NCBI GenBank assembly: GCA_014905635.1
Contig: JABVCE010000009.1
Location: 930,001 to 994,000, forward strand
Origin: Scenedesmus sp. PABB004
Taxonomy: Eukaryota
Length of the DNA: 64,000 bases
Direction: 5' to 3'
Shown piece after piece: positions 43,217-50,121 of this stretch. The notes below the pieces were generated by a model that was not told the DNA's origin, did no database searches, and saw only the letters and a program-made list of their open reading frames with translations. How positions within the stretch are numbered: position 1 is the first letter of the stretch; every line of letters starts with the position of its first letter. Made by a program: the position numbers and the translations under genes.

Positions 43217-43903
43217 GGCGCCTGCTTTCTTGCGACAACCCTTGCTGCTGCTGCCGCAGAGGAGAGGGCGCGCCGGGGCCGCGAGCACCGTGTGCGCGTG
43301 CGGCCGCGCGGGTTTGGCTCTGGGACGGCGCCGTGGCAGCAGCGGAGCAGGGAGCGGGGAGCCAATGCGGCCAGCAACAGCGAGCCCTAAACACCGGGTG
43401 AACGCGGTCGAGATCGCGGTGGGGTGGTCGGAGTGCGTTCGCAGGCCCACGATCGAGCGGTCGGCGGCGGCTCGGGCCGCGCGCGTAAACGGCTGAGGAG
43501 AGACCGAGCTGATGGCGATGGCGCGGCCCCGTTTGCCCGGCCCCGCCCTCAATCACCGCGCCCGCGCCAGACCCGGATGCTCCCGAGCCTTCTCAAAGAC
43601 GTCGCAAGTGCAGTGCGCCCTCCCAGCCGCCCACGTGGGGCGGTCACTCATGCTGGTGCCGCCCACGTGGGGTGGCGCCGCGCCGCGTGACCCAAGCTCG
43701 ATCGACAACACAAGCGAGCCCGCCCACTAGCGCTGCAAAAACCGCCCACTTCTGCCACATCAACCCACCGAGCTCACGTTCTATGCTGCCCGCGCTCCCC
43801 GCCGAGTTGCGCGCGCGCGCGCCGACCGGCCGCCGCCCCGTGCCGCGCTCTGTGCCACCGCCGCCTCGCGCGCCGCCTCGCTTCAGCTCCTCACGCCGTC
43901 GCC

Positions 43904-44703
43904 TCACTTGTCCATCTCGGCCTGGATCTGGTCGAACGACTTTCCCTTGGTTTCAGGCACGTTTGCAGCCACCCACGCGGCGGCGACGAGCGAGCAGGCG
44001 CCGAAAAAGGCATAGACCGCCGACAGACCGTACGCGTTGGCCGCGGCCATGAAGTTCTGCCCGATCGCCACGTTGCACACCCAGTGCGTCACCATCGCCG
44101 CCGACACGGCGTTGCCTGCGCGCGCGCGCACCGCGCGCGCGTGAGCGGGTCGGCGCGCGCGCGCGGTGCGCCGCGCCCGCCCGCGGCCCTGCGCCGCCAG
44201 CCCGCGCCGCGGCGCGCCGCGCGCCGCGCGTCGCCGCCGCCTGGTGCTCGCACCGCGCACGGCCTCCTTGTTGAGCTCCGGCACGATCAGCCCCGACACC
44301 GGCCCCGCGCCGATGGCAAACGACAGGATGTAGGCCAGCGTGCCGCCCAGCGCGATCGTGCCGCTGCGGCGGGCGGCGCGCGGCGCCGCGGCGGCGGGCC
44401 GTCGGCGGCGCCCGCGCGGCGGCGGGCCATCGCGGCGGCGGCGGACGCGGCGCGTGCCTGTAGGGCGCGAGGGCGGGCAGGCCGAAGCCGGCGGCCATGA
44501 GGGCCATGGTGGCGGCCATGCCCAGGTACGAGGCGGTCAGCAGCTGCTTGCGGCCCGCGCCCTCGATGAGCCCCGTCGCGACGAGCGTGCCGGCCACGTT
44601 GGTCGCGCCGACCGCGGCGCTCGCGAGCGCGCCCGACGCGATGCCGGCCTGCGCGCGTCCAGCGCCCGCGGGGCGGGGCGGTCTCAGAACACACACAACA
44701 CCA

Positions 44704-44738
<35 letters not shown>

Positions 44739-46359
44739 TGCGCGTGCGATGCGCGTGCGGCGCGTGCGCTGCCGCGCGCTGCCGCCCGTGTCGCCGCGCC
44801 TGCTTGAACACGCTGCTGCTGAAGTAGACGATGGCGTTGATGCCGCTGAACTGCTGGAACACAAACAGAAGGCAGCCCAGCACCACGCCCTTGCGGTACG
44901 GCGCGGCGAGCAGGTTGGCCCCGCCCGACGCGGCGCCGCCGGCCTTGGCGCCGCCGGCCGGCGCGGCGCCGAGCTGCGCGGCGCCGCCGGCGCCCCAGAG
45001 CTTGGTCGCCGTCGCGAGCGCCTCGTCGCGCTTGCCCTTGCTCGCCAGGTAGGCGGGAGACTCGGGGCAGCCCAGCATGCCTGCGCCCCGCGGCGGCGCG
45101 CGGCGTGCTCGGCGCGGCGCTCGGCGCGCGACGCAGCGGCGTGCCAGGCCGGCAGCGGCCCGCCGCGCGGCGCGTTCCATGCTCGGCGCGCGTCGGCGCG
45201 CGCGCGCACCCAGGAGCAGGATGCCGGCGGGCGCGGCGGCGAGCGTGAACATCGTGCGCCAGTCGGTCACGGGCAGGGCCACGTTGACCAGCAGCGCCGC
45301 GAGGATGCCGAGGCAGATCATGAGCTGGTTCAGGCTGCCCAGCGTGCCGCGCACCGACGTCGGCGACACCTGCGCCGCGCGGCGCGGCGCGGCGCGGCGG
45401 CGGCTCGGCGGGCGCGCGGCGGGCGCCGCTGCCCGCTGCCGCCTGCCCTGGCACCGCCGCTCGCGGCCGGGCGGCGGCGGCGCGTGCGGCGCCGGCTCGC
45501 CTCTGAGATGTAGAGGGGCACGAGCGCGGAGCTGAGGCCGATCGCGACGCCCGCGAGGAAGCGGCCGGCGACCATGGTGTTGAGGTCGGCCGCCGCCGCG
45601 CTGAGCAGCGGGCCGACGAGCATGGGCACCGCGCAGAGCATGAACGAGAGGCGCCGCCCCAGCGCGTCGGCAAAGCCGCCGCCCGTGAGGCTGCCGAGCG
45701 CGGCGCCGGCGAGCGTGCTGCTCACGACCTGCGGCCGGCGCGGCGCGGCGCGGCGCGGTTGGGCCCACGGCGCGCGGCCGCCGCGACGCTGCAGCGCTGC
45801 GGCGGGCGGGCGGGCGGGCGGGCGGCCGCAGCGGCGCGCACCAGGCCGGCGAGCGCCTGGTTGCCGGCGAAGCCGAGCTCGCGCGCGATCGCCTCGAGCG
45901 GCCCGTTGACGACGCCGAGGTGGTACCCAAAGGCAAACGCGCCCATGCACGCCACGCCCACCGCGCCGAGCACGGCGCCCATGTTGGCGCCGGGCGACGC
46001 CGACGACGCGCCCGACGCGCCCGACGCCGCGCGCGGCGGCGCCGGCCCGGCGGCGCGGCGCGGGCGGCCCGCGGCGCGCGCCGGCGCGACGACGGCGGCT
46101 AGCGCGCGGGGAGCGGGCGGGTGCCACGCGGGCGGCGCGGGGGGATGTGGGCGGCAGCACTGCGGCGGCGTGCGCAGCGGCGCTGCGGCAGCGGCGGCAC
46201 GGCGGCATGCCGCCACTCACCGCCGCCGTGGCGATGGCTCGGCGGCGGCGGGACGCGCCCGGACGCCGCGCCGCGAGGCGCCAGGGCCCGGCGGGACGAC
46301 GGCCTGGCGCAGGCGCGCGCCGAGACAGCTGCGAGCGGCTTCATCGCGAGCGCGGCCAT
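43904..46359 (-). CDS. Plastidic glucose transporter (pGlcT-like, MFS sugar porter) with transit peptide
   Basis: AFAFGYHLGVVNGPLE, ADALGRR, VPLYISE|VSPTSVRGTLGSLNQLMICLGI, CPESP, FQQFSGINAIVYFSS, GAGPVSGLIVPEL, HWVCN and VPETKGKS. Confidence 0.93.
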
Positions 46360-46509
46360 TGCGTGGCAGGGCTGAGTGCAAGAGGGCTGTGGGCGGGACG
46401 CGGCGGGCGTGGGCGCACGGGGTGCGTGATGGCGGGGCCCCGCCGGCGCGCCAGCGGCGATGCCGTTGCGCAGGATGGCCGCCGTCGCTGGGAGATGCCT
46501 CCAGGCCGC

Positions 46510-47378
46510 CAGCTAGGCGATCCGCGGCGCGACCTGCACACCAACGCTGCGCCAGACCAGCCGCTCGACGCTCCGATCGCTGCTGTGACGCTGCGGATAG
46601 CCCATGCGCACGCACCGAGCAGGTGTGGCGCGCGCGGGGTCGGGCGGGCCCGTCATACCTCCCTGGACCGCAGCGCGGCTGGCGACCTCCCGCTGCAGGT
46701 CCTTGAGGGGTTCCTTGCGCAGACGCACGGCCGCCTCGCTGGCATCCACGGCGGCGCGCTACTCGGGCACGAGCGTCGCCGCCGCCGGGGCGTGGCGCAA
46801 CGGCCGGGTGCATCATGTGTTGGACAATGCATTCGCATATAGCTTGCTTGCGTGCCGTGCAGAGTGTGCGTGGCGGCTGCGGAAGCACGGGCTGAAGCAG
46901 CGCGCTGCATGCGGCGATTCAGTTGACTGCATACGGCCGGGTCTTTGTGCGCGGGCGCGTCCGGCAGCACGCGCGCCTGCCCGCCGACCTGCCCGCGGTG
47001 GTGCTGGGCATCGGGGACGCCAGCCTGGGCATGGGGGGCTGCATCTCGGGGCCGGGGCCGCCGCGGCAGGCGCTGCTGGCGCTGCTGCGCACGTACTACG
47101 CGCGCCGGCGCGTCGCCGCGGTGCTCATGGACGAGCACCGGACCAGCATCACCTGCTCTGTTTGCGGGGCGCGCGTGGAGAAGCTGCGGGGCATCTATGG
47201 TCTGGTGCAGTGCCCCGGGTGCACGGTCGTCGCGCCGCGCGACGACAACGCGGCGCGCAACATCTGCGCGCTCACGCTGCACGAGTTGCTGCGCGGCGGC
47301 CGCGGCACGGCGGGCGGCGCGCGCCTCGCCGGCGCGTTCCGGCAGGCGGCCGCCGCCGCGGTGGACCCCCCGGCGTGA
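46510..47378 (+). pseudogene. Fanzor (eukaryotic TnpB-like RuvC nuclease) remnant, frameshifted and apparently 5'-truncated
   Basis: Frame 46902-47378: ALHAAIQLT...VVLGIGDASLG...GPGPPRQALLALL...VLMDEHRTSITCSVCG...LVQCPGC...RDDNAARNI (RuvC-II Glu, CxxC..CxxC zinc finger, RuvC-III Asp). An adjacent upstream frame reads VHHVLDN...AWRLRKHGLKQR. A possible degenerate RuvC-I (GDPRRDL) lies at 46516-46536. No introns. Confidence 0.8.
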
Positions 47379-47399
47379 GCGGCGTGTGCGGTGCGCTGC

Positions 47400-47625
47400 G
47401 CTCTCCGTCCTGGGCAGGACGTTAAAAGGCCTCTTGCTGTTGTGTTGTGTTGCCAGGTTAGGTCAGGCGTGTGCGCGTGCGTTTCTCGCCTTGTCACCCG
47501 TTCCGGGTGGCGCAAACCCCTCGCGGGGCACCGACCTGCGGGCCGGTCCCAAACCGTTATGCCTCGCGCCGCTGTGGCCTGTTTCAGGCGGCCGGCGATC
47601 AGAGGATGCCCATGGTCGGTGTTGG
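47400..47625 (+). ncRNA. Candidate structured RNA (putative Fanzor omega-RNA scaffold)
   Basis: Hairpins at 47406-47421, 47465-47491, 47492-47512, 47517-47528 and ~47562-47605, plus a long-range stem 47527-47536/47614-47623, directly 3' of the Fanzor stop. Confidence 0.45.
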
Positions 47626-48013
47626 CGGCGGCGGCGCGCGCGCGCGGCGGTGGCAGCGCCGCGCACGCGCGCCGCGCGCCCGCGGCGCCGGGGCGCCCCC
47701 GGGGCGCCCCGGCAGCCCCCATCCCCCCAGCCGCCGGTGTTGAGACCACCGGCCGGCGCTCCCACGGCGGTAGCGAGGCCGGGGAGCACGCCCACTGCCA
47801 CGAGCTGGGGCGGAGGCACGAGCTGTCGTCGCGGAGTTGCCTGGGCGCCGGGAGCACGGCTGCAGCTGACCCGGCCAACCACCGCGGTGCGGCGGCTCAC
47901 TCTCTCGAAGCTCACGGCCGCCGCGCCCGGCCGCCGCCGCGCCCGCCGCCGCGCCCGCCGCCGCGCGCGGCGCTGCTACCCCTGCCGGCCCCACGCCCGC
48001 GCCCGCTGCGCTG

Positions 48014-48047
<34 letters not shown>

Positions 48048-48725
48048 CCGCCGCCGCCGGCCGCCGCGGCCGCCGCCGCCGCGACGAGCGCGTCGTTGCC
48101 CGCCCCCGGCCGCGTCTTGCCCGCGATGCGCGTAGCGTGCTCGGGGTGGCGGTGCGGCGCTCTCGCGGTGTCGGCGGCGCGATCTCGCTGCGCTGGTGCC
48201 GTGCCGGGCGGGCGAGCGGTCGAGGTGCTTGAGCCCGCGCCCCCAGCTCGTTTGCCGCTCGCCTGCGCGCGCGCTGCTCACGGCCGCGCTGCGATCATCG
48301 CCCCGCCCTCCTCCCGTCCCGCCTCTCCTACCGACCGATCGCGCCCGCGCTGCGAAGGCGCCCGCTCCCGCAGCCAACCGCCGGCCCGCCAGGCGCTCAC
48401 CAGGTGCGCGGGTGGGCGCACGCGACGCGGGAGCGACGCCGGAGGCGCGCGGGCGCGCCAGGGGGCCCGCCGCGCCGGCCGGCAGCAGCGCGCGCGGCAG
48501 GCCCCGGGGCGCGGCGCGAGGGCGGCCCGGGCGCACCCGCCAGCCAAGCGCAGACCGCGCCCGATCGCGGCGCACGGCCGGCGGCGGCGACGCGGCGCGG
48601 CCCGCACGGCGCGCGGCGGCCACTGGCGCTGCCGCGTGCTGCTGCCGCGCGCGGCGGGGGCGGCGCGCCGACGCTGCCCGCGCACGCACGCGCGCAGGCC
48701 AGAACAGCGCGGCGTGCCAGCGGCC

Positions 48726-49659
48726 ATGGCGACCGAGAAGAAGGCCCCCGTGTTCAAGGCGCGGCCGCCGCTGCCGCATGCGCGCGCGGCAGCGAGGGCT
48801 GCCGTCGCTGCGAGGGCCGCAGGGCCGCGGCCGCGACCGGGCGGGCGCGCCGCCGCCGTGCCGCGCAGAACGTGGCCGACCTGCGGCCGGGCACGCACAA
48901 CCACAACCTCAAGGTCAAGGTGCGCAAAGCCCCGGCCCAGCGGCGGGCGCGGCGCAGCGCGCAGGGGCCGCCGGCGGCCCACCGCGCCGCCGCTCCGCCC
49001 CATGCACGCACACGCCCACGCACTCACACCCGCACGCGCCACCGGCGGCCGCAGGTGATGAAGGCGCAGATCGTGGTCGACCGCCCCCGCGGGCCCAAGG
49101 GCACGCCGCTGCGCGTGGCCGAGTGCATCGTCGGCGACGCGAGCGGCTGCATCGTGTTCACCGCGCGCAACGAGCAGGGTGCGCGCACCGGCAGCGCACC
49201 GCCGCGCCGCGCCGCACCACGCAGCCGCGCCGGCCGCGCGGGCCTCTCGCCGCGGCGCCGCCGCCGCCGCCGCGGCGCCGCCGGCCTCACGCCCGCGCGC
49301 GCGCGCCGCGCCGCGCCGCGGCGCACACCCCACACAGTCGAGCTCGCGACCGTGGGCGCGTACGTGACGCTGCGCAACGCCAAGATCGATATGTACCGCG
49401 GCTCGATGCGGCTAGCGGTGGACCAGTGGGGCAAGGTGGAGGCGCTCGAGGGCGCGTCGTTCGAGCCCAAGGTGCGCTGCGGCGGCGGCAGCGGCGGCGG
49501 CGGCGCGCGGCGCGCGGGCGCAGGGAGGCGGGGCGCCGCGCGCGGGGAGGGCGCCGCCCGAGCAGCGCCCGCCCGCCGCGCGCGCAGGCGGACAACAACC
49601 TGTCCCTGGTGGAGTACGAGCTGGTCACGGTGCCGGGCGAGACGCCCGCGGCCTCGTAG
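48726..49659 (+). CDS. Small OB-fold nucleic-acid-binding protein (At4g28440-like), 5 exons
   Basis: MATEKKAPVFK|NVADLRPGTHNHNLKVK|V...RVAECIVGDASGCIVFTARNEQ|VELATVGAYVTLRNAKIDMYRGSMRLAVDQWGKVE...|ADNNLSLVEYELV. Confidence 0.9.
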
Positions 49660-50121
49660 GCCACCCCAGCCGCGCAGGCGCCGGCGTGGGCGCCGGCGGG
49701 GTGCCGGCGTGGGCGCCGGCGGGGCGGGAGCGGCCCCGCGGTCGGCGGCCGGCGTGGCGGCGCAGCAGCAGCTCCTCCTCGTGGTTGGTCTGGCTGCGGG
49801 CAGGGAGAGCTGAGCGCCCTCTCTGATCTGTCGTGCGCCTTGCATGCACTGGTTGCCGAGGGGGCCCTGGGCTCGCGCAGCGCCGCGTGTGGGGCCCGCA
49901 GTTGGCGCGGCGGCGGGCCCTACAGGGCGTCCAGCGAGCGCGCGCGCATCGGGCGCTTGTTACCCTCCCGACCCGACACAAGCCTGGGAGCGGCGTCGGC
50001 CGCACCAGCCCCGCGCAGCCCGCCGCGCCGCGCCGCCGCGCCAGCCAGCCGCGCCAGCGACCTGCGCGCGCCGGCCAGGCCCCCGCGCTCGTGCGCCCGT
50101 TCGCGCGCGGCGCTCGCTCGC

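What the first reader, a model, noticed from the sequence alone, without database searches (positions are those of the whole stretch)
47379..47650. Hairpin-dense non-coding segment right after the Fanzor stop: candidate omega-RNA
Seen: lower GC than the flanks, with stacked stems CGTCCT/AGGACG (47406-47421), AGGCG/CGCCT (47465-47491), TGTCACCCG-ttc-CGGGTGGCG (47492-47512) and CCCC-tcgc-GGGG (47517-47528). There is also a nested CCTC..CGCCG..GCCTG-ttt-CAGGC..CGGCG..GAGG (~47562-47605) and a closing stem GGCACCGACC/GGTCGGTGTT (47527-47536/47614-47623). Several stems contain G-U pairs, as expected of RNA-level structure. Known: TnpB/Fanzor guide RNAs derive from the element's 3' end, with the guide read from flanking DNA. 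Inference: the scaffold ends near ~47623 and the guide would follow. It could still load a Fanzor expressed in trans.
Basis: partly seen in the sequence, partly recalled or inferred. Interest (0 to 1): 0.75.

Follow-up and report, generated by a model that had tools for sequence, protein, structure and literature searches.

The report
Algal Fanzor guide-RNA region, end misplaced
The segment is the front part of the non-coding tail of a repeated algal jumping element that encodes an RNA-guided DNA cutter (Fanzor); it probably belongs to the guide RNA, which ends about 170 bases further on than proposed, and the element's odd copying pattern hints that the cutter itself may help it spread.

Summary
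All the named stems exist, but the segment folds no better than shuffles (z -0.6) and has no Rfam match.

It lies in the 3' non-coding tail of an ~8.6-kb Fanzor1 element with over 30 copies in G000. Conservation does not stop at 47623: 29 of 30 right ends finish exactly at ...GAGCACGC, window 47791. The scaffold should therefore end there, and the guide start at 47792.

The closing stem 47529-47621 keeps all 8 pairs in a 74%-identical stand-alone copy, two by compensatory change. This supports an RNA of at least 275 nt.

Copies are 5'-truncated, keep their predicted introns and have microhomology junctions. They also share 0-17 nt of right flank, a guide's length. This resembles the Chlamydomonas CRe-1/2/3 elements and the fuzzy ends of Replitron-1.

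Apparently new: long copies carry a captured CtIP/SAE2 C-terminal module, and no transposase was found in the element or, by weak searches, in the genome.

Verdict: a real, probable omega-RNA region with the wrong boundary. Fanzor-driven copying is plausible but unshown; a test for guide-matched target sites was negative.

The parts
46665..46759 (-). Inverted ~95-nt piece of the Fanzor ORF from further upstream in the element; forms the rearranged 5' end of this copy
   Evidence: BLAST to the full-length C24 copy, 94% identity, reverse strand; junction shown
46759..47378 (+). 3' end of the Fanzor1 ORF (catalytic Glu in DEHRTS, C4 zinc finger, RDDNAARN). This copy lacks RuvC-I and has a frameshift near 46900, so it cannot make an active nuclease
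47379..47516 (+). 5' part of the non-coding tail, low GC, with TGTTG repeats; stems weakly supported; 3'-UTR-like or a 5' extension of the RNA
   Evidence: similarity to the diverged copy L154 is poor here
47517..47621 (+). Conserved structured domain: CCCC/GGGG hairpin and a multi-branch domain closed by CACCGACC/GGTCGGTG (47529-47536 / 47614-47621); probable 5' domain of the omega-RNA
   Evidence: Closing stem 97.8% of cells paired, 2 double and 2 G-U changes, 3 unpaired cells in two other copies; RNA contigs of one study cover it (weak)
47623..47721 (+). Variable, very GC-rich domain, possibly closed by a long-range stem (47623-47632 / 47712-47721); its interior is deleted in one copy (L103) and replaced in another (L155)
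   Evidence: the long-range stem has no covariation support and one pair is broken in 12 of 17 rows
47730..47757 (+). Stem-loop A, GCCGCCGGTG / CACCGGCCGGC
   Evidence: 98.2% paired, one double change; a diverged relic in L199 keeps the stem with a changed loop
47758..47791 (+). Terminal stem-loop B (GCTCCC/GGGAGC) plus ACGC: the fixed right end of the element and the predicted 3' end of the scaffold (the next CCA, to 47794, may belong to an older end)
   Evidence: 29 of 30 loci end here; 97.1% paired, 3 one-sided changes, broken at one pair in 2 copies
47792..47811 (+). Predicted guide of this copy, read from flanking DNA (begins CCACTGCCACGAG); its first 6 nt are shared with two other copies
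   Evidence: the guide position is inferred from the rule for tested Fanzors (PMC10530073, PMC10432273, bioRxiv 2023.08.09.552727)

Best explanation
The flagged segment is the 5' half of the right-end non-coding RNA region of an intron-containing Fanzor1 element of the CRe-1/2/3 type. Shown: the element's right end is 47791. Inferred: a read-through transcript yields an omega-RNA whose scaffold ends at ...GAGCACGC and whose guide is the next ~15-20 nt of flank. The scaffold includes stem-loops A and B (47730-47787) and probably the domain 47517-47621, so it is at least 275 nt or is cut from such a precursor. This truncated copy makes no nuclease but could supply a guide to Fanzor made by full-length copies. 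Shown: the family spreads by one-ended, DNA-level copying. Each new copy begins 0-17 nt beyond the scaffold end in the parent's flank, runs leftwards with microhomology jumps, foldbacks and inversions, and stops at a variable point. Inferred (about 40% on its own): double-strand breaks made by the element's own Fanzor, with resection helped by the captured CtIP C-terminal module, start this copying through host repair, with no transposase of its own.
For: Fixed right end in 29 of 30 loci, against only 10 left-end matches with graded boundaries. Structure counts on 18 rows: 7 pairs with changes on both sides against 1.3 in shuffles (0 of 500 as high), and at most 5 in slid controls. A stand-alone copy (L154, ~74% identical, no Fanzor ORF found in its 10 kb) keeps all 8 closing-stem pairs. 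The whole tail has z -3.0. RNA contigs in 3 of 3 laid runs cover ~47400-47640. The catalytic D, E and D lie in one frame in 11 of 13 copies that span them; the C24 copy is open from the OTU-like part to the stop once two predicted introns are removed. The fold search ranks Fanzor1 and Cas12f structures first (low-confidence model, pLDDT 48). Fuzzy ends: CCA in 16 of 28 flanks, 0.7 expected; 10 pairs share 7 nt or more against a shuffle mean of 1.4 and a maximum of 9 in 5000. Two parent-daughter pairs share both upstream host DNA and a right-flank prefix. The predicted introns are kept in 8 of 8 and 7 of 7 spanning copies. The SAE2 module scores E 3e-10, is in 6 element copies plus one host locus, and is 45% identical to the host copy.
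Against: The flagged interval alone folds no better than shuffles. Nearly all double changes come from one diverged copy, and 2 of the 7 lie in a poorly aligned stretch. The tested Fanzor1 scaffolds I read about are shorter: 75 nt for SpuFz1 (PMC10432273) and ~120 nt for SfAV (bioRxiv 2023.08.09.552727). In CrFNuc a conserved upstream region was absent from the small-RNA trace (PMC10530073). The RNA contigs come from one study at depth 2-4, show no strand or ends, may be DNA, and favour the lowest-GC part. Left flanks are not enriched for matches to any copy's guide (mean score 17.6 in 25 junctions against 17.4 in 302 controls) and share no TAM-like motif. Only 2 of 28 copies have a long target duplication. 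Flank sharing tracks element similarity only weakly (Mantel r -0.22, p 0.085). SAE2 is in frame with the downstream ORF in only 2 of 5 measured copies. The related CrFNuc-1 showed no cleavage in vitro (PMC10530073).
Confidence: 0.55

Rival explanations
1. The mature omega-RNA is only the last 60-120 nt (stem-loops A and B plus guide). The flagged segment is 3' UTR or a precursor extension that is trimmed off.
For: Tested Fanzor1 scaffolds are 75-120 nt. CrFNuc has a conserved upstream region missing from small-RNA reads. Several copies start inside or after the flagged segment (L082, L085, L086, L092, L101, L105). z -0.6 for the segment.
Against: The closing stem keeps pairing through 6 substitutions in a stand-alone diverged copy. 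RNA contigs sit on this part (weak).
Confidence: 0.27
2. The right-end hairpins are DNA signals for an HUH transposase (Helitron2 or Replitron type) supplied in trans or since lost. Fanzor is a passenger that only protects copy number.
For: The same signature (5' truncation, internal deletions, intact 3' ends, variable duplications, captured 5' sequence) is described for CRe-1/2/3, whose ends resemble verified Helitron2 elements (PMC3627910). Fuzzy right ends derived from the parent are described for Replitron-1 (PMC10288648). An 8-nt inverted match (GGGGCTGC at the left end, GCAGCCCC at 47712) could be an asymmetric terminal repeat (seen by eye).
Against: No PF21859 or PF14214 match in G000 (weak, because the controls did not ring and introns split genes). 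Only one PIF1 locus, with no repeat signature. No fixed left end and no fixed target motif. G-U-preserving changes suit RNA better than DNA.
Confidence: 0.12
3. Copies are made by retrotransposition (a LINE reverse transcriptase in trans) of unspliced transcripts that end in the guide.
For: 5' truncation, a 5' inversion with twin-priming geometry in the window copy, two 16-18-nt target duplications, and 3' junctions confined to a guide's length.
Against: Predicted introns kept in every spanning copy. Internal deletions fall at 2-6-nt microhomologies, not GT-AG. Foldback palindromes are present. No poly(A) tails at the right junctions.
Confidence: 0.04
4. One reading: the scaffold ends near 47623 and the guide follows.
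For: The closing stem ends at 47621-47623, and RNA contig cover drops near 47640, although the contigs' loose ends continue into element sequence.
Against: No copy ends there; 29 of 30 end at 47791. A guide here would be nearly the same in all copies and would match the element itself.
Confidence: 0.02

Closest known systems
CRe-1, -2, -3 Fanzor1 elements (non-autonomous Helitron2) and CrFNuc fRNA of Chlamydomonas reinhardtii (PMC3627910; PMC10530073)
   Same: Green-algal, intron-containing, Fanzor-only element; 5' truncation, internal deletions, intact 3' ends, variable target duplications, captured 5' sequence; non-coding RNA region in the 3' UTR with many protein-less copies.
   Different: No TTTT target or any fixed target motif. 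Long duplications in only 2 of 28 copies (10-70% in the CRe families). No Helitron transposase found in this genome (weak test) and no fixed left end. Carries a CtIP/SAE2 module and an OTU-like module.
Replitron-1 / Replitron-N1 of C. reinhardtii (PMC10288648)
   Same: The right end carries a variable stretch derived from the parent's flank; variable duplications; DNA-level copy-and-paste.
   Different: Replitrons encode an HUH Rep, have a precise left end and insert after RG. Here there is no Rep and the left end varies, and the fuzzy stretch coincides with the predicted guide of an encoded Fanzor.
SpuFz1 omega-RNA and ghost loci (PMC10432273); SfAV Fanzor1 reRNA (bioRxiv 2023.08.09.552727)
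   Same: Scaffold from the right end and guide from the flank; a stem-loop next to the guide; protein-less copies that could act in trans.
   Different: Those elements have terminal inverted repeats and fixed duplications, with scaffolds of 75-120 nt. Here the tail is 413 nt, the conserved part at least 275 nt, and there are no clear terminal repeats.
Engineered Cas9-CtIP fusions (PMC5859065, seen as search listing and abstract start only)
   Same: An RNA-guided nuclease coupled to part of CtIP, a resection factor.
   Different: The engineered minimal fragment is N-terminal. The element carries the C-terminal SAE2 domain. A natural fusion protein is inferred, not shown.

Membership tests
Fanzor omega-RNA (fRNA/reRNA) | Lies between the Fanzor stop codon and the element's right end and is conserved among copies | tested here: met
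   47379-47791
Fanzor omega-RNA (fRNA/reRNA) | Scaffold 3' end coincides with the element boundary, with a variable flank as guide | tested here: met
   Met at 47791 (29 of 30); not met at the proposed 47623
Fanzor omega-RNA (fRNA/reRNA) | Conserved RNA secondary structure with covariation | tested here: inconclusive
   7 double changes, 0 of 500 shuffles as high, but mostly from one diverged copy; z -0.6 for the flagged part and -3.0 for the whole tail
Fanzor omega-RNA (fRNA/reRNA) | Expressed as a discrete RNA that extends ~15-20 nt into the flank | tested here: inconclusive
   Only contigs of one metatranscriptome study; no ends or strand; no cover of the last 150 nt
Fanzor omega-RNA (fRNA/reRNA) | Binds Fanzor and directs TAM-dependent cleavage | not testable with these tools
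   Needs RNP purification and a TAM screen
Fanzor1 | D-X(125,275)-TS-XX-C4 zinc finger-X(5,50)-RD motif (PMC3627910), with the Glu just before the zinc finger | tested here: met
   DPG ... DEHRTS ... C4 ... RDDNAA in one frame in 11 of 13 spanning copies; the window copy lacks the first Asp
Fanzor1 | Placement in the Fanzor1 clade rather than Fanzor2/IS607 | tested here: inconclusive
   No tree was built. The fold search hits SpuFz, PpFz, GtFz and Cas12f first from a low-confidence model. The 26 sequence relatives found are unnamed or hypothetical where looked up (10 of 26). No serine recombinase in the scanned ORF
Helitron2 (CRe-1/2/3 type) | 5' end starting with T, 8-15-bp asymmetric inverted repeats, hairpins at both ends | tested here: inconclusive
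   An 8-nt inverted match and a possible 5' hairpin seen by eye; the match is ~75 nt, not 20-30 nt, from the 3' end; left ends are graded
Helitron2 (CRe-1/2/3 type) | Insertion after a T-rich tetranucleotide | tested here: not met
   The commonest 4-mer before 25 left junctions occurs 3 times and is not T-rich
Helitron2 (CRe-1/2/3 type) | Autonomous RepHel partner sharing the ends | tested here: inconclusive
   PF14214 0 matches, PF05970 one locus; the search is exon by exon and its control did not ring for PF14214
Replitron | Rep HUH transposase (PF21859), short direct terminal repeats, precise left end at a target dinucleotide | tested here: not met
   0 matches in G000 (weak); left end variable; GAGCACGC recurs ~45 nt inside the longest left ends

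The most novel reading that the evidence does not exclude
A transposase-free Fanzor element that spreads itself. Its RNA-guided nuclease, fused to a captured CtIP C-terminal resection-activating module, makes breaks that host repair fills by copying from a parent element, starting within the parent's guide window. Each daughter inherits the first bases of the parent's guide and gains a new distal part, so the guides evolve as a lineage. This would also offer a cause for the unexplained one-ended transposition and fuzzy ends of Chlamydomonas Fanzor elements.
Probability: 0.2. Interest if true: 0.9.

Novelty: new variant of a known kind. Interest (0 to 1): 0.6.

Why it matters
An omega-RNA behind an algal Fanzor is expected. 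What is less ordinary is the family around it.

First, the role of Fanzor in eukaryotic transposition is an open question; PMC10432273 and PMC10288648 both leave it as speculation. This young family has a fixed scaffold end, parent-derived flank of guide length and no transposase found, which makes the question testable: compare new insertions from catalytically active and dead elements.

Second, a CtIP/SAE2 module on a Fanzor element was not found in my searches. It would be a natural parallel to engineered nuclease-resection-factor fusions.

Third, the corrected boundary (47791) is needed for any biochemical test; a construct ending at 47623 would lack both terminal stem-loops and the guide.

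Tried and rejected
- Rfam: 2 matches at E up to 5 in 46300-48700, both far below gathering score and outside the segment.
- Relatives outside the genome for covariation: 15 metagenome loci and 1 viral locus were only distant TnpB-like hits (30-48% over short stretches). The nucleotide HMM found no match in those 16, the covariance model none in the 4 of them searched, and a 27-nt pattern had 0 matches in viral contigs.
- Three word-based protein searches found nothing at E <= 0.001, so whether SAE2-Fanzor fusions exist elsewhere is untested. An alignment-based locus search could not run.
- Of 11 extra pattern hits in G000, 1 (L199) was a relic of stem-loop A and 10 were not.
- Guide-directed target choice: no enrichment in left flanks. 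One junction (L087) matches another copy's flank over 11 nt, the top score among 25 + 302 windows, but it is a single case.
- Junction-anchored duplications: 1 of 28 above the null.
- Long-range stem 47623/47721: no covariation.
- A pseudoknot with the 3' terminal bases was looked for by eye only; nothing consistent was seen.
Lack of RNA cover over the ORF and the last 150 nt proves nothing.
- Earlier scan notes: none for this genome or the words; one unrelated hit.
- Rows dropped before counts: L093 (duplicate site of L092); L107 (no GAGCACGC end) in all flank counts; L081, L098 and L100 in the left-flank test; L101 in the Mantel test.
- One search had three wrong minus-strand ranges and was redone.

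Full report
OBSERVATION. The minimum-energy fold contains most of the proposed stems, but it is no more stable than dinucleotide shuffles: z -0.61, 58 of 200 as good; reverse strand z 0.01. The best of 9 sub-windows reached z -1.8 on the + strand and -2.3 on the - strand. Rfam gave no match in the segment. The ORF ending at 47378 matches PF07282 (E 1.4e-10).

THE ELEMENT. The segment has 31 matches in G000, a lower bound. Alignment to the window shows a shared block from 46759 to about 47791-47797. Longer copies reach ~8.6 kb. Their long ORF holds the Fanzor motif DPG ... DEHRTS ... C4 ... RDDNAA, in one frame in 11 of 13 copies that span it. Pfam found only PF07282 in the 2370-codon frame of the C24 copy, and no transposase. 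Two predicted GT-AG introns (134 and 103 nt) interrupt it, and removing them leaves an open frame; they are not confirmed by RNA. A low-confidence model (pLDDT 48) ranks Cas12f and the Fanzor1 structures SpuFz, PpFz and GtFz first. The window copy is a 5'-truncated piece without RuvC-I, with a frameshift near 46900 and an inverted 95-nt fragment at its left end. That the host is a GC-rich green alga is my inference from gene and intron style.

THE BOUNDARY. A search with the last 95 nt gave 30 loci. 29 end in GAGCACGC, window 47791; the 30th (L107 = L154) is a diverged copy. Two further copies (L002, L027) have lost the right end, at about 47720 and 47740. None ends at 47623. Column identity across 22 long copies is 0.91-1.00 in every 25-nt bin from 47376 to 47791. 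Tested Fanzor RNAs abut the right end and run 15-20 nt into the flank (PMC10530073, section 10 read; PMC10432273, passages; bioRxiv 2023.08.09.552727, passages). By that rule the scaffold ends at 47791 and the guide starts at 47792. CCA follows in 16 of 28 independent flanks, so an older end at 47794 is possible.

IS THE FLAGGED PART STRUCTURED RNA? The whole tail 47379-47791 folds better than shuffles (z -3.0, 1 of 100). I aligned 18 of the ~32 copies, chosen for diversity. On it, the window-derived structure has 94.3% of cells paired and 7 pairs with changes on both sides, against 1.3 in shuffles (0 of 500 as high) and at most 5 in slid controls. The stand-alone copy L154 is ~74% identical and has no Fanzor ORF detected in its 10 kb. 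It has 6 substitutions in these 16 nt and keeps all 8 pairs, two by compensation and two as G-U. Against this: 3 cells of that stem are unpaired in two other copies, almost all double changes come from L154, and two lie in a poorly aligned stretch. The stem AGGCG/CGCCT is broken in 9 of 22 copies. Stem-loops A (47730-47757) and B (47758-47787) are 98% and 97% paired, and a relic in L199 keeps stem A with a new loop. A long-range stem around the GC-rich middle has no covariation support. RNA contigs from three runs of one freshwater study cover about 47400-47640 in 3 of 3 runs, in several sequence variants of the family. Depth is 2-4, strand and ends are unknown, DNA cannot be excluded and this is the lowest-GC part, so the evidence is weak. 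I put the chance that the right end encodes an omega-RNA at about 85%, and the chance that the mature RNA includes 47517-47621 at about 60%.

HOW COPIES ARISE. Shown: only 10 left-end matches were found and their boundaries are graded. Most copies are 5'-truncated at scattered points. Internal deletions sit at 2-6-nt microhomologies rather than splice sites, and foldback palindromes occur. The predicted introns are kept in 8 of 8 and 7 of 7 spanning copies, which points to DNA-level copying. Right flanks share nested prefixes: among 16 CCA-starting flanks, 10 pairs share 7 nt or more, against a shuffle mean of 1.4 and a maximum of 9 in 5000. The longest is 14 nt exact, or 17 of 18 nt, leaving aside one duplicated site. 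Copy C35b carries ~590 nt of the host DNA upstream of copy C24 and shares its first 9 flank bases. C38 and C15a share ~250 nt upstream and 10 flank bases. So daughters inherit part of the parent's flank, never more than a guide's length in these data. Two of 28 copies have target duplications of 16 and 18 nt (null maximum 11 in 756 pairs), ending at flank positions +22 and +21, close to the target-strand cuts reported for SpuFz1; two cases are only a hint. Against guide-chosen targets: left flanks are not enriched for guide matches and share no TAM-like motif, and the Mantel test is not significant (r -0.22, p 0.085; pairs sharing 6 nt or more differ by 0.029 against 0.052 for the rest). No Replitron or Helitron Rep domain was found in G000 (weak tests), and there is one PIF1 locus.

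CAPTURED MODULES. The 5' part of long copies encodes a CtIP/SAE2 C-terminal domain (PF08573, E 3e-10). It is present in 6 element copies and one other locus that looks like the host gene, at 45% identity. It keeps CxxC, RHR and T-P; that these are the functional motifs of CtIP is recalled, from no call. It is in frame with the downstream ORF in 2 of 5 measured copies; the others are shifted within GC-rich repeats, by mutation or assembly error. An OTU-like segment follows (Atlas lead 0.92, PF02338 on 34% of that cluster's members; no Pfam hit).

MECHANISM. Inferred: full-length copies make Fanzor, which loads right-end RNAs from any copy, this one included. Breaks are repaired by resection and microhomology-primed synthesis that invades a parent element within its guide window, copies leftwards and finishes by end joining. 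I give Fanzor-initiated breaks about 40%, an undetected or lost HUH transposase about 30%, Fanzor-independent repair capture about 20% and retrotransposition about 10%.

COMPARISON. The pattern is close to CRe-1/2/3 of C. reinhardtii: one-ended transposition, 5' truncation and variable duplications (PMC3627910, abstract, outline and passages). Their RNA region was sequenced and their protein did not cleave in vitro (the supplement search returned main-text rows only). Parent-derived fuzzy right ends are described for Replitron-1, with Fanzor raised there as a tentative cause (PMC10288648, passages and section 9 part 1). Right-end-only and protein-less Fanzor loci are also described (bioRxiv 2024.09.03.611062, passages), and an unclassified abundant Fanzor repeat is mentioned for Auxenochlorella (PMC12633428, passages). 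The passages I saw of a 2026 review treat Fanzors as cargo of transposase-encoding elements (PMC13565253). Searches found no report of a Fanzor with a CtIP/SAE2 module or of guide-window inheritance in a transposase-free Fanzor family. The library lacks most subscription papers and Repbase, so absence is not established. Cas9-CtIP fusions (PMC5859065) were seen as a listing and abstract start only.

VERDICT. A real feature, with the RNA idea probably right and the boundary wrong by ~170 nt. It is a new variant of a known kind. Interest 0.6, carried mainly by the copying signature and the CtIP module rather than by the hairpins.

Noticed in passing
L060:8073-8333 (-), C24 copy; host locus L189 (G000:C9:331876): CtIP/SAE2 C-terminal module in 6 long element copies, 45% identical to the host's own copy, upstream of the Fanzor ORF and in frame with it in 2 of 5 measured copies.
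   Followed up: partly
L060:6301-7101 (-): OTU-like cysteine-protease segment (GLCGF ... NHWAAV) between the SAE2 module and Fanzor; Atlas lead only, no Pfam hit.
   Followed up: partly
L154:3240-3560 (-), G000:C10:347239-347559: Stand-alone diverged (~74%) copy of the non-coding tail with no Fanzor ORF detected. Its 3' flank contains two 8-mers (CGGTTCAG, TTCAGAGT) also found at the element's left end; this could be a junction relic or chance.
   Followed up: partly
L199:386-440 (+), G000:C76:852028: Diverged relic of stem-loop A with the stem kept and the loop changed.
   Followed up: partly
L141-L144, longest left ends: A 45-nt left extension ends in a hairpin plus GAGCACGC, the same 8-mer as the right end; it may be a relic of another right end joined head to tail.
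   Followed up: no
L098 and L100 (G000:C67:943k and 893k): Two deleted copies share ~1.2 kb of upstream DNA that ends in an ELIP/LHC-like motif (PEVINGLLAMLGFAI; family label recalled), i.e. host sequence carried or duplicated with the element.
   Followed up: no
L151 (G000:C1:1395895) and L153 (G000:C76:1395034): Left-end fragments with no Fanzor or right end detected in the 19 kb and 9 kb fetched downstream.
   Followed up: partly
window 43900-46230 (-) and 48728-49660 (+): The element sits between two divergently oriented, intron-rich host genes: a sugar-transporter-like gene and a small OB-fold-like gene (labels from reading the translations, not from a family search).
   Followed up: no
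L091 and L094 right flanks: The first flank bases repeat the element's own end (CGGGGAGC; GGCACGC), as expected of templated end-joining insertions.
   Followed up: no
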